The notes under the pieces: model-generated
The model's input: the letters and a program-made list of their open reading frames with translations, nothing else
The model's database searches: none
Told to the model about the DNA's origin: nothing
In this document: positions 23,338-25,706 of the stretch, in pieces
Numbering within the stretch: the first letter of the stretch is position 1
How the letters are laid out: every line of letters begins with the position of its first letter
From: Thauera sp.
GTDB taxonomy: Bacteria > Pseudomonadota > Gammaproteobacteria > Burkholderiales > Rhodocyclaceae
NCBI GenBank assembly: GCA_029286945.1
Contig: JAREIX010000028.1
Span: 1 to 41,941, forward strand
Direction: 5' to 3'
DNA length: 41,941 bases
Program-made: the position numbers and the translations under genes

Positions 23338-24387
23338 ATGCAATCGATTACCCTTGTCCGCCCCGACGACTGGCACCTCCACGTGCGCGACGACGCCGCG
23401 CTCGAGGCGGTGGTGCCCCATACCGCCGCGCGTTTCGGGCGCGCGCTGATCATGCCCAACCTCAAGCCGCCGGTCACCACGACCGCGCAGGCGCTGGCCT
23501 ACCGGCAGCGGATCCTGGCCGCGGCGCGCGGCACCGGCTTCCAGCCGCTGATGAGCCTGTACCTCACCGACAACCTGCCGGCGGACGAGATCGATCGCGC
23601 CCGCGACAGCGGTCACGTCATCGCCTGCAAGCTCTATCCGGCGGGGGCGACGACCAACTCCGACGCTGGCGTCACCGCGATCGACAAGGTCTATCCGGTG
23701 CTCGAGCGCATGGAGAAGCTCGGCATGGTCCTGTGCGTCCATGGCGAGGCGACCGGCGCCGATGTCGACGTGTTCGACCGCGAGCGCGTCTTCATCGAGC
23801 GCACCCTGTCGCCGCTGGTGCGCCGCTTCCCGGGGCTGAAGGTGGTGTTCGAGCACATCACCACCGCCGAGGCGGCGCAGTTCGTGCGCGCCGCCGGCGC
23901 CAACGTGGCGGCGACGGTGACCGCGCATCACCTGCTGCTCAACCGCAACGCGATGTTCGCCGGCGGCATCCGGCCGCACCATTACTGTCTGCCGGTGCTC
24001 AAGCGCGAAACCCATCACGAGGCGCTGGTGTCCGCGGTCACCTCGGGCAATCCGCGCTTCTTCCTCGGTACCGACTCCGCGCCGCATGCGCAGAGCACCA
24101 AGGAGAGCGCCTGCGGCTGCGCCGGCTGCTACACCGCGCACGCCGGCATCGAGCTCTATGCGGAGGTCTTCGATGCGGCGGGCGCGCTCGACCGTCTGGA
24201 AGCCTTCGCCAGCCTGAACGGCCCGGCGTTCTATGGCCTGGCGCCGAACGCCGACACCATCACGCTGCGCCGCGAGGCCTGGGGCGTGCCGGCGAGCTAC
24301 CCCTATCTCGGCGACGACCCCCTGGTGCCGCTGCGCGCGGGCGAGCAGGTGGCGTGGAAGCTGGTCGCGTCGGGAGTGGGCGCGTGA
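23338..24387 (+). CDS. pyrC: Dihydroorotase
   Basis: [39 protein letters not shown]. Confidence 0.97.
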
Positions 24388-24815
24388 TGCGCGCGAGGCG
24401 GGCGGCGCGCGTGCTCGCCGCGGCCGCGCTGCTGGGCGTGCTCGCGGGCTGCGAGAACAGCGCTACCTCGTACATGATCGACGGTAGTCAGCATGCGCTG
24501 ATCCTGGTGCGGGAGCAGAAGTTCTTCTGGGACGACGAGCTCGGTCAGGCGGTGGTGGTGTCGCGCCTGCCGGCGTGCCAGAAGCGCGTCCGCATCCATC
24601 CGGGGGCGGTGGACCTGGTCGAGATGAAGGTCTACACCGCGGGTGACGGCCTGTGGGCGCTGCATCAGGGCAGCCGCTGGTACCTCGCCGGCACCGAGGA
24701 GTGTCGCCTGCAGGACTGGGACAACCCCGGCAACCAGCCGCCGGGCAAGCTGGTCGGAAGCTTCGTGCTCAAAGACGGTGCCCCAGCCTTCGTGCCGGCT
24801 CCAGCGGCAAACTGA
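24387..24815 (+). CDS. Hypothetical lipoprotein
   Basis: TGATG overlap with pyrC; signal peptide with lipobox LAGC; 142 aa with host-like codon usage. Confidence 0.8.
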   Translation: MRARRAARVLAAAALLGVLAGCENSATSYMIDGSQHALILVREQKFFWDDELGQAVVVSRLPACQKRVRIHPGAVDLVEMKVYTAGDGLWALHQGSRWYLAGTEECRLQDWDNPGNQPPGKLVGSFVLKDGAPAFVPAPAAN

Positions 24816-24841
24816 GCCGGACGGTGGCGCGCCGACCTGCG

Positions 24842-24847
24842 TATAAT
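24842..24847 (+). promoter_or_regulatory. -10 element of rnpB
   Basis: TATAAT 7 nt before the P1 5' strand. Confidence 0.7.
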
Positions 24848-24854
24848 CGTCGGC

Positions 24855-25390
24855 GGGAAGTTCGCCAGGCAGTCGCTGCGCGCCATGTCGCGCGTGGAGG
24901 AAAGTCCGGGCCCCGCAGAGCAGGATGCCGGCTAACGGCCGGGCGCCGTGAGGCGACGGAAAGTGCAACAGAGAGCAGACCGCCGATGGCCGCGAGGCGG
25001 CAAGGCCTCCCTCCTGAAGAGGAGGGCGTTCCGCGGTACGAGAGTGCCGCTGGGACGGGAGGCTGGCGCGCAAGCGCCAGCGGCCGGCGCGGCGAACGCC
25101 GCGTCGGCCGGCACAGGCAAGGGTGAAACGGTGTCGTGGCGTGCGCAAGCGCGGCGCGGGCCGGTGCGAGAGTGCCGGCGGGTAAGAGCCCACCGCAGGA
25201 CTGGCAACAGGACTGGCACGGTAAACCCCATCCGGGGCAAGGCCAAATAGGGGAGCATCGGCGTGGCTCGCGTCGCTCCCGGGTAGGCTGCTAGAGCGTC
25301 ACGGTAACGTGTCGCCCAGAGGAATGACTGCCCGATGTCGCCGGCTCGCCGGCGGCGTTCGACAGAACCCGGCTTATCGGCGAACTTCCC
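24855..25390 (+). ncRNA. rnpB: RNase P RNA, bacterial type A, with large insertions (about 536 nt)
   Basis: P1 gggaagttcgcc/ggcgaacttccc; conserved GAGGAAAGTCC, GAAAGTGCAACAGA, GGGTGAAA, GGTAAAC..GCAAGGCCAAAT, AGAGGAATGACTG, ACAGAACCCGGCTTAT. Confidence 0.97.
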
Positions 25391-25644
25391 CACTTCCCCA
25401 CACCGTTTCATCCTCGCGGCCCCTCGTCCGCGGTCCGGCGCTGCGTTTCTGCGTGCCGGCGGTCCGGCCGCAGCGCCGTTTTGGGCCCGATTTCCCACTC
25501 TCTCCCACTTCGGCCTTCGCCGCGCCCGGGTTCGCGCAACGCGTGAGCCCGAATTGCCATCGTCCTTGATTTTTCAGGATTTATTGCCTTGCCGGTGTTG
25601 TGACATAAGTCATTGTGTCACAACGAGATTCCGCTCGAGCTGCC

Positions 25645-25673
25645 TTGACCGGGCATTGCCTTTCCACTAAAGT
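25645..25673 (+). promoter_or_regulatory. dcw operon (mraZ) promoter
   Basis: TTGACC (25645-25650), 17-nt spacer, TAAAGT (25668-25673). Confidence 0.75.
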
Positions 25674-25706
25674 GGGTTTAAGTGGAAAAAAGTGGGGAAA
25701 AGTGTC
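25670..25706 (+). promoter_or_regulatory. MraZ operator, direct repeats at 10-bp period
   Basis: aaGTGGG, aaGTGGA, aaGTGGG, aaGTGTC with cores at 25672, 25682, 25692, 25702, overlapping the -10 and start site. Confidence 0.85.

What the first reader, a model, noticed from the sequence alone, without database searches (positions are those of the whole stretch)
24855..25390. Oversized RNase P RNA (about 536 nt) with intact catalytic core
Seen: all conserved regions and P1 are intact, yet the RNA is about 160 nt longer than E. coli M1 RNA (377 nt). Most of the extra sequence lies in the specificity domain as stable, largely GNRA-capped hairpins with G-U pairs, which suggests selection at the RNA level. 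Inference: an elaborated S-domain that may add tertiary contacts, bind a partner, or change substrate range. Covariance-model annotation may truncate or split it.
Basis: partly seen in the sequence, partly recalled or inferred. Interest (0 to 1): 0.72.

Follow-up and report, generated by a model that had tools for sequence, protein, structure and literature searches.

The report
RNase P RNA with optional arms
This is the bacterium's single gene for the RNA enzyme that trims tRNA precursors, about 150 bases longer than in its shortest relatives because two outer helices carry extra predicted hairpins that many close relatives lack, so the arms are likely tolerated, exchangeable decorations rather than a new function.

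Summary
Confirmed: one full-length class A RNase P RNA gene (Rfam RF00010, 231 bits, 536 nt), between pyrC/lipoprotein and mraZ, with rnpA elsewhere in the genome. All 154 nt of excess over short congeners lie in the specificity domain: +108 in P12 (five-hairpin branch) and +46 inside P13 (two hairpins, predicted four-way junction); both covary as structure while sequence drifts. Long and short alleles sit in sister species (555 vs 384 nt), and either insert occurs alone, so they are likely dispensable; growth by local duplication and exchange by recombination are inferred. The window copy probably lacks 17 nt of P12 (four contigs from four studies have them), so the real RNA is likely about 553 nt. 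The expansion appears uncut in RNA-run contigs. P12 expansions and lengths to 550 nt are in print. The scan already noted the P13 branch, and other oversized RNase P RNAs, on other DNA.

The parts
24842..24847 (+). -10 promoter box (TATAAT) 7 nt before the P1 5' end; likely rnpB promoter
   Evidence: sequence; same hexamer upstream in 37 of 37 genus members with enough flank; not picked up by the consensus scan, which needs a -35 box
24855..25390 (+). rnpB, class A RNase P RNA, 536 nt as assembled (likely about 553 nt)
   Evidence: RF00010 24857-25392, 231.3 bits, model 1-367; single copy; 17-nt longer form in runs X1, X6, X7, X9
24855..24866 (+). P1 5' strand
   Evidence: complementary to 25379-25390 (alignment)
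24980..25118 (+). P12 region, 139 nt against 29-31 nt in short congeners; multibranch expansion
24988..24989 (+). site where the window lacks 17 nt (5' strand of the P12 extension stem and 5' arm of hairpin A) relative to near-identical sequences; assembly slip or private deletion
   Evidence: gap against G001, G008, G022, G211, G134, G178; 17 letters put in behind 24988 in contigs of X1, X7, X6, X9
24989..25008 (+). P12 hairpin A, remnant (tip with GNRA loop and 3' arm)
   Evidence: alignment to congeners; intact hairpin A in 10 of 10 other genus members with P12 of 77 nt or more
25009..25026 (+). P12 hairpin B (7 bp, non-GNRA loop)
   Evidence: fold; homologues in G001, G022, G211, G134
25027..25057 (+). 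P12 hairpin C (GNRA loop), most variable arm; 21-nt stretch is 86% identical to P13 hairpin 2
   Evidence: fold; internal direct repeat 25034-25054 / 25162-25182
25062..25081 (+). P12 hairpin D (8 bp, GNRA loop)
   Evidence: 100% of cells paired, 3 of 8 pairs with two-sided changes in 7 sequences
25082..25109 (+). P12 hairpin E (12 bp, non-GNRA loop here)
   Evidence: 92.9% of cells paired, 3 of 12 pairs with two-sided changes
25134..25159 (+). P13 in-stem insert, hairpin 1 (11 bp, GNRA loop)
   Evidence: 92.5% paired, 5 of 11 pairs with two-sided changes in 17 sequences
25160..25179 (+). P13 in-stem insert, hairpin 2 (8 bp, GNRA loop)
   Evidence: 97.1% paired, 2 of 8 pairs with two-sided changes
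25180..25190 (+). P13 tip (2 bp) and conserved 7-nt loop L13, kept intact beyond the insert
   Evidence: loop invariant in 17 of 17 carriers; tip pairs 100% paired with one two-sided change
25333..25361 (+). P19 hairpin, present in all genus members parsed
   Evidence: segment of 33-36 nt in 38 of 38
25379..25390 (+). P1 3' strand

Best explanation
This is the organism's ordinary class A RNase P RNA gene, and its extra length is two self-folding add-ons at the outer edge of the specificity domain (a multi-hairpin branch at the tip of P12 and a two-hairpin branch inside P13) that are likely tolerated rather than needed. Shown: the core and the motifs around both inserts are intact, the hairpins keep their pairing while their letters drift, many congeners lack one or both inserts, and some relatives carry tandem copies of insert hairpins. 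Inferred: the arms grow and shrink by slippage at short GC-rich repeats, purifying selection only asks that they fold on themselves and leave the core and the L13 loop in place (hence hairpin pairs that make a stacked four-way junction when the insert falls inside P13), and long and short alleles move between related species by recombination through the highly conserved flanks. The RNA would be made from the TATAAT promoter, fold with RnpA and cut pre-tRNA leaders as usual, with the arms pointing away from the tRNA and staying attached.
For: Full-length single-copy RF00010 match and an rnpA gene with no stop. Genus lengths 381-617 nt, 18 of 38 at 381-384; graded P12 series 29-31, 47-48, 77-78, 104, 139-156, 218 nt. 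Closest long/short pair G001 (555 nt) and G007 (384 nt): tree distance 0.043, core difference 0.4%. Presence/absence is no more clustered on the flanking-gene tree than shuffled labels (P13: 11 changes vs 12.9; P12: 10 vs 11.6; both P about 0.19). Insert p-distance 0.25 vs core 0.04; hairpin A 0.225 vs rsmH 0.163. Tandem copies inside P12 of G035 (3 x 37 nt), G199, G093, and a 21-nt internal repeat in the window. In-stem P13 inserts fold as two hairpins in 58 of 60 cases, in-loop inserts as one in 50 of 51. Identical or one-letter-different short P12 tips in separate clades and a P14 of non-genus type in G006. RNA-run contigs tile the expansion into both flanks (X9). Post-LBCA expansions lie away from the tRNA interface (PMC12974513 section 12); P12 is described as sometimes dispensable (PMC2858038 passage).
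Against: The inserts are old and kept: the P13 branch has a fixed 46 nt in 17 of 18 genus carriers and hairpin A recurs in other genera of the family, which pure drift does not obviously give. The two inserts co-occur more than expected (12 of 14 P12-expanded members carry the P13 insert, against 6 of 24 others), though they lie 15 nt apart and would travel together. 16 of 17 P13 hairpin-1 loops are GNRA. Insert distance does follow species distance (Mantel rho 0.37, P 0.0025), so repeated loss from a long ancestor explains part of the pattern without transfer. In T. indicus, replacing an expanded P12 impaired complementation (PMC9945441), so expansions are not always neutral. No activity or fitness data exist here.
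Confidence: 0.7

Rival explanations
1. The arms are optional struts: GNRA loops of one module dock on helices of the other or of the core and stabilise folding under some conditions, so long alleles are favoured in some niches and lost in others.
For: Fixed stem lengths of the P13 branch within the genus and mostly GNRA loops; co-occurrence 12 of 14 vs 6 of 24; precedent of a lineage-specific P9-P12 pseudoknot needed at low Mg2+ in Deinococcus radiodurans (PMC8457005 abstract passage).
Against: Either insert occurs alone (6 and 2 genomes); among 55 in-stem carriers from many taxa P12 runs from 15 to 143 nt and the insert from 20 to 49 nt; 4 of 17 hairpin-2 loops are not GNRA; no 11-nt receptor motif in the RNA; all-GNRA loops cannot pair with each other.
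Confidence: 0.17
2. The P12 expansion is an intervening piece that is cut out after transcription, as in Thermodesulfatator indicus, leaving a fragmented enzyme of normal size.
For: Direct precedent for excision of a P12 expansion in vivo (PMC9945441 abstract and passages). Contigs cannot show ends of molecules, so a cut majority is not excluded.
Against: The T. indicus cut sites are A/U-rich; this insert is 23% A+U with no U run over 2. Overlapping RNA-run contigs cover the expansion and join it to both flanks in X9, and cover most of it in X5 and X7.
Confidence: 0.07
3. The arms are a platform for an extra protein or RNA partner, or widen the substrate range.
For: [quoted passage not shown] Hairpin A is recognisable across genera (pattern-selected).
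Against: Position-selected hairpin A diverges as fast as the P13 insert and faster than rsmH; sister species lack the arms; gene neighbourhood is the same in long and short species; RnpA is an ordinary Pfam PF00825 protein.
Confidence: 0.04
4. The arms are copies of a mobile palindromic repeat or relics of a selfish element that inserted into rnpB.
For: Such cases were noted by this scan in other genomes (unchecked notes).
Against: blastn of the RNA against its own genome finds only short GC-rich chance matches (best E 0.003); G001's P12 matches only rnpB; a hairpin-A pattern with up to 2 mismatches hits rnpB in G001 and G035 and one other place in 5 genomes.
Confidence: 0.02

Closest known systems
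Bacterial class A RNase P RNA (Rfam RF00010; E. coli M1 RNA, Thermotoga maritima P RNA)
   Same: Full model match, all core helices, P13/P14, P6/P16/P17, P18, single copy, rnpA in the genome.
   Different: About 160 nt above the class A mean of 374 nt but inside the published range of 250-550 nt as assembled (PMC7191817 passages); branched P12 and branched P13.
P12 expansion segment of Thermodesulfatator indicus P RNA (Gossringer et al. 2023, PMC9945441; abstract and passages read)
   Same: Large insert at the tip of P12 in an otherwise class A RNA.
   Different: There A/U-rich sites are cut and about 70 nt excised in vivo, in an organism that also has HARP; here the insert is GC-rich and multibranched, appears uncut in RNA-run contigs, and no PF08745 (HARP) match was found in the 81% complete genome.
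P13 inserts of Gemmata and anammox planctomycetes (Butler et al. 2007, PMID 17328750; title seen in a reference list; paper not held; content recalled)
   Same: Extra helix associated with P13.
   Different: The planctomycete, Bacteroidota and Acidobacteriota records in my scan have one hairpin inside loop L13 (50 of 51); the window has two hairpins inside the P13 stem (58 of 60 of that class). That the published insert is the in-loop class is my inference.
Repeat-built P12 extensions of heterocyst-forming cyanobacteria (STRR; recalled, also named in scan notes)
   Same: P12 tip lengthened without harming the core.
   Different: Here the arms are not made of a dispersed genomic repeat.

Membership tests
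Bacterial class A RNase P RNA (RF00010) | Score above the gathering threshold over the whole model | tested here: met
   231.3 bits vs 100, positions 1-367
Bacterial class A RNase P RNA (RF00010) | Conserved regions CR I-V, P4 pseudoknot and P1 closing helix | tested here: met
   alignment; landmarks located
Bacterial class A RNase P RNA (RF00010) | P13/P14 in the S-domain, P6/P16/P17 and P18 present, no P5.1/P10.1 | tested here: met
   P13 base, tip and loop conserved around the insert; segment lengths outside the inserts equal those of short congeners
Bacterial class A RNase P RNA (RF00010) | RnpA protein subunit encoded | tested here: met
   PF00825 94.5 bits at G000:C19:15591-15911, next to rpmH-like ORF
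Bacterial class A RNase P RNA (RF00010) | Transcribed as a discrete RNA | tested here: inconclusive
   RNA-run contigs cover the gene span and, in X7, nothing at 24729-24844 or 25396-25550; contigs cannot give ends, strand or level
Bacterial class A RNase P RNA (RF00010) | Cleaves pre-tRNA 5' leaders | not testable with these tools
   follows from family membership and single copy only
Excised P12 expansion (T. indicus type) | A/U-rich cut sites flanking the distal P12 | tested here: not met
   23% A+U, longest U run 2
Excised P12 expansion (T. indicus type) | Mature RNA fragmented in vivo | tested here: inconclusive
   uncut form present in RNA-run contigs; share of cut molecules cannot be read from contigs
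Mobile or dispersed repeat inserted in rnpB | Further copies elsewhere in the genome | tested here: not met
   (genome 81% complete)
In-loop single-hairpin P13 insert (planctomycete/Bacteroidota/Acidobacteriota class) | One hairpin plus short linker inside L13 with the P13 stem unbroken | tested here: not met
   window insert splits the stem 5 bp / 2 bp with two hairpins

The most novel reading that the evidence does not exclude
The specificity domain of an essential ribozyme is polymorphic for whole structural cassettes that co-occurring Thauera-like bacteria swap by recombination, and a geometric rule governs what can be accepted: an insert inside P13 comes as a hairpin pair forming a stacked four-way junction, repeatedly and across phyla. 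In the long alleles the P13 pair and the nested P12 junctions dock to form an extra strut that tunes folding, which would make this genus a natural 381-617 nt series for watching RNA accretion in action.
Probability: 0.15. Interest if true: 0.55.

Novelty: new variant of a known kind. Interest (0 to 1): 0.27.

Why it matters
As a single long RNase P RNA it matters little: the length is within or at the edge of the published range and is matched or exceeded by relatives. What is useful is the series around it: sister species with nearly identical cores differ by up to 170 nt of peripheral structure, which gives ready-made pairs for testing whether RNA expansion segments are neutral, and the two-hairpin rule for in-stem P13 inserts is a clean example of a folding constraint on RNA growth. 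It is also a warning that hairpin-rich RNA genes in metagenome bins can carry small deletions.

Tried and rejected
Mobile-repeat origin: no dispersed copies (a loose 16-letter motif had 14 hits in G000, too unspecific in a 70% GC genome to count). Second RNase P gene or HARP back-up: one rnpB, no PF08745 match (genome 81% complete). Whole feature as misassembly: rejected, a DNA contig of run X1 spans 24700-25393 with 12 substitutions and the 17 extra letters. Run X4 has pieces identical to the window on both sides but none over 25002-25061, so it does not decide the 17-nt question. Contig depths were not used to rank expression; joints that skip P12 in RNA runs have other letters between the sides and come from short-allele relatives, not excision (tables 5, 5c). 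Sequence-level conservation of hairpin A looked striking when picked by pattern but vanished when picked by position. The constrained fold mis-modelled the in-loop class; redone. Overlapping long ORFs on both strands were judged GC-rich chance frames and not followed. The promoter/terminator scan found no rnpB promoter or convincing terminator. Four of the 20 family loci and four early loci failed my landmark parser and were left out of segment tables. One search was a malformed alignment and was ignored. Literature: eight searches found no description of this architecture in Rhodocyclaceae or of a two-hairpin branch in P13; older RNase P database drawings and subscription papers are not in the library, and I opened no supplements (those of PMC12974513, with 337 bacterial structures, may show it).

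Full report
Observation. cmscan finds one RNA family in the window: RF00010 (bacterial RNase P class A) at 24857-25392 on the plus strand, 536 nt, 231.3 bits, covering model positions 1-367 without a cut. It is the only match in genome G000. The gene lies between a dihydroorotase-like amidohydrolase gene with a small lipoprotein-like ORF and mraZ-rsmH (the name pyrC is my reading), an order kept in most congeners. A TATAAT box lies 7 nt upstream and is present in 37 of 37 genus members with enough flank. An intact rnpA lies on contig C19; no HARP-family match was found in the 81% complete genome. The genus is inferred to be Thauera (Rhodocyclaceae), because named Thauera records carry the same P13 inserts as same-genus handles.

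Where the extra sequence is. Against the shortest congeners (381-384 nt) the window has 108 more nt in P12 and 46 more in P13; every other segment has the same length. The P12 region folds into hairpins A (remnant), B, C, D, E (z -6.5). The P13 insert splits the helix into a 5-bp base and a 2-bp tip and adds two hairpins with no linker, a predicted four-way junction; loop L13 is invariant in 17 of 17 carriers. Five of the seven hairpins end in GNRA. Pairing is kept through compensatory change: 95.5% of 442 cells paired and 8 of 26 pairs changed on both sides for P13 (17 sequences, 0 of 500 shuffles reach the covariation score, slid controls 30-51% paired); 95.7% of 140 cells and 6 of 20 pairs for hairpins D and E (7 sequences). 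These controls do not remove relatedness, and hairpins B and C were not counted.

How unusual it is. All 41 genomes of the genus were searched: 38 full-length matches (one cut at a contig end, one fragment, one without match) run from 381 to 617 nt; 18 are 381-384 nt, 6 reach 500 nt, and the window is fifth. In 150 family genomes, 143 full-length matches (5 partial and 2 missing dropped) have median 384 nt, 23 reach 450, 6 reach 500, 3 reach 536. In 150 genomes of the order, I count 8 matches of 500 nt or more, 5 of them 536 or more (read from coordinates). Of the 119, 60 are in-stem inserts, 58 folding as two hairpins (Betaproteobacteria above all, also Nitrospirota, Elusimicrobiota, Gemmatimonadota, WOR-3, an alphaproteobacterium, a deltaproteobacterium, a Brocadiia bin), 51 are in-loop inserts, 50 folding as one hairpin (Acidobacteriota, Bacteroidota, Planctomycetota), and 8 did not fit either rule. 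Published: prokaryotic RNase P RNAs span 250-550 nt with a class A mean of 374 (PMC7191817, passages); a P12 expansion segment is described and excised in T. indicus (PMC9945441, abstract and passages). So the RNA is in the upper few percent but is one point on a continuum.

How the arms behave in evolution. On a tree of four flanking genes for 38 genus members, long and short alleles are interleaved: G001 (555 nt) is sister to G007 (384 nt) at distance 0.043 with a 0.4% core difference; G027 (474) sits among 382-nt species; the window's nearest relatives have 501, 429 and 382-384 nt. Parsimony needs 11 changes for the P13 insert and 10 for an expanded P12, no fewer than shuffled labels give (P about 0.19). 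Eighteen members have neither insert, 6 only P13, 2 only P12, 12 both. Insert sequence diverges by 0.25 against 0.04 for the core, and hairpin A by 0.225 against 0.163 for rsmH DNA (8 genomes): structure is kept, letters are not. Tandem copies of hairpin units in G035 (three of 37 nt), G199 and G093, and a 21-nt repeat shared by window hairpin C and P13 hairpin 2, show local duplication. The arms are not dispersed repeats. Insert distance correlates with species distance (rho 0.37, P 0.0025), which fits an old long allele; but loss alone would have to restore the same canonical P13 and a 29-31 nt P12 a dozen times or more, near-identical short P12 tips recur in separate clades, and G006 has a P14 like that of other families. 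I infer allele exchange by recombination through the conserved flanks, on top of vertical descent; this is not shown, and the tree comes from genes next to rnpB, not the whole genome.

The window copy is probably 17 nt short. Aligned to long relatives it has a clean 17-nt gap behind 24988 that removes the 5' strand of the P12 extension stem and the 5' arm of hairpin A. Of seven runs laid (X4 and X5 twice), four from four studies list a contig that crosses this place into the window-type expansion, and all four have the 17 letters: X1 (DNA, 24700-25393, 12 substitutions), X6 (DNA, 5), X7 and X9 (RNA, 24962-25096, no other difference). The piece tables are cut (9072 and 654 pieces not shown), and the source sample may not be among the runs, so a private deletion is not excluded. 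The likely true length is about 553 nt, with two nested junctions in P12 as predicted for G001 and G022.

Expression. Nine of the 24 listed runs are on record as RNA. In X9 overlapping contigs tile the expansion into both conserved flanks; X5 and X7 cover most of it. In X7 nothing is laid at 24729-24844 or 25396-25550, which fits an RNA origin. So uncut molecules likely exist; whether some are cut cannot be read from contigs. The insert lacks the A/U-rich sites of T. indicus.

Mechanism and verdict. Shown: intact core, structured arms, lineage-wide but patchy occurrence, free sequence drift, local duplication. From established knowledge: class A RNA plus RnpA cleaves pre-tRNA leaders; bacterial expansions lie away from the tRNA interface, P14 docking on P8 (PMC12974513, section 12 and passages); L13 docking near P12 is recalled, not looked up. 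Inferred: the arms are tolerated because they fold on themselves and preserve stacking, and are exchanged between species (0.7). Rivals: conditional strut (0.17), excised segment (0.07), partner platform or new substrates (0.04), mobile repeat (0.02). Eight literature searches showed no description of this architecture, but the older RNase P literature is mostly outside the library and no supplements were opened. The scan had already noted the two-hairpin P13 branch in another Rhodocyclaceae genome and several longer RNase P RNAs elsewhere. New variant of a known kind; interest 0.27.

Noticed in passing
window 25669-25704 (+), with opposite-strand look-alikes at 25386-25403 and 25491-25510: Three purine-rich direct repeats at 10-nt spacing upstream of mraZ, resembling the known MraZ operator (recalled); similar boxes on the other strand lie at the 3' end of rnpB and 100 nt after it.
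   Followed up: partly
window 25597-25624: 12-bp A/T-rich inverted repeat with a 4-nt spacer between rnpB and the mraZ promoter-like site at 25645-25673; possible regulator site.
   Followed up: no
window 25393-25480: No clear intrinsic terminator after rnpB, yet RNA-run cover stops near 25395.
   Followed up: partly
L049:3337-3447 (G035): Longest genus member (617 nt) has a 37-nt unit in three tandem copies inside P12; could be real slippage or an assembly repeat.
   Followed up: partly
L171 (G178): 597-nt family member whose P13 branch has grown to an 80-nt insert with a further nested branch.
   Followed up: no
L185 (G065), L045 (G050), L182, L183, L187, L188, L190: Other family and order members are long through inserts of about 90-100 nt elsewhere, in the 5' part of the S-domain, in G065 and G050 right inside the conserved stretch before P12.
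   Followed up: no
L172 (G199): 582-nt RNA with a duplicated P12 hairpin and a parse that suggests an altered L13 or longer 3' part.
   Followed up: no
G204:C10:100148-100501 and 101590-101818: A second, weak 229-nt RF00010 match 1.1 kb after the main rnpB in one family member; G259 also has a second match.
   Followed up: no
window 24387-24815: 142-aa lipoprotein-like ORF just upstream of rnpB, no Pfam family, found in most congeners and missing beside rnpB in several.
   Followed up: no
L081, L086, L092 (Brocadiaceae/Planctomycetota records): Core lengths of 495-553 nt with P12 of 91-211 nt together with the in-loop P13 hairpin: equally large RNAs by a different route.
   Followed up: no
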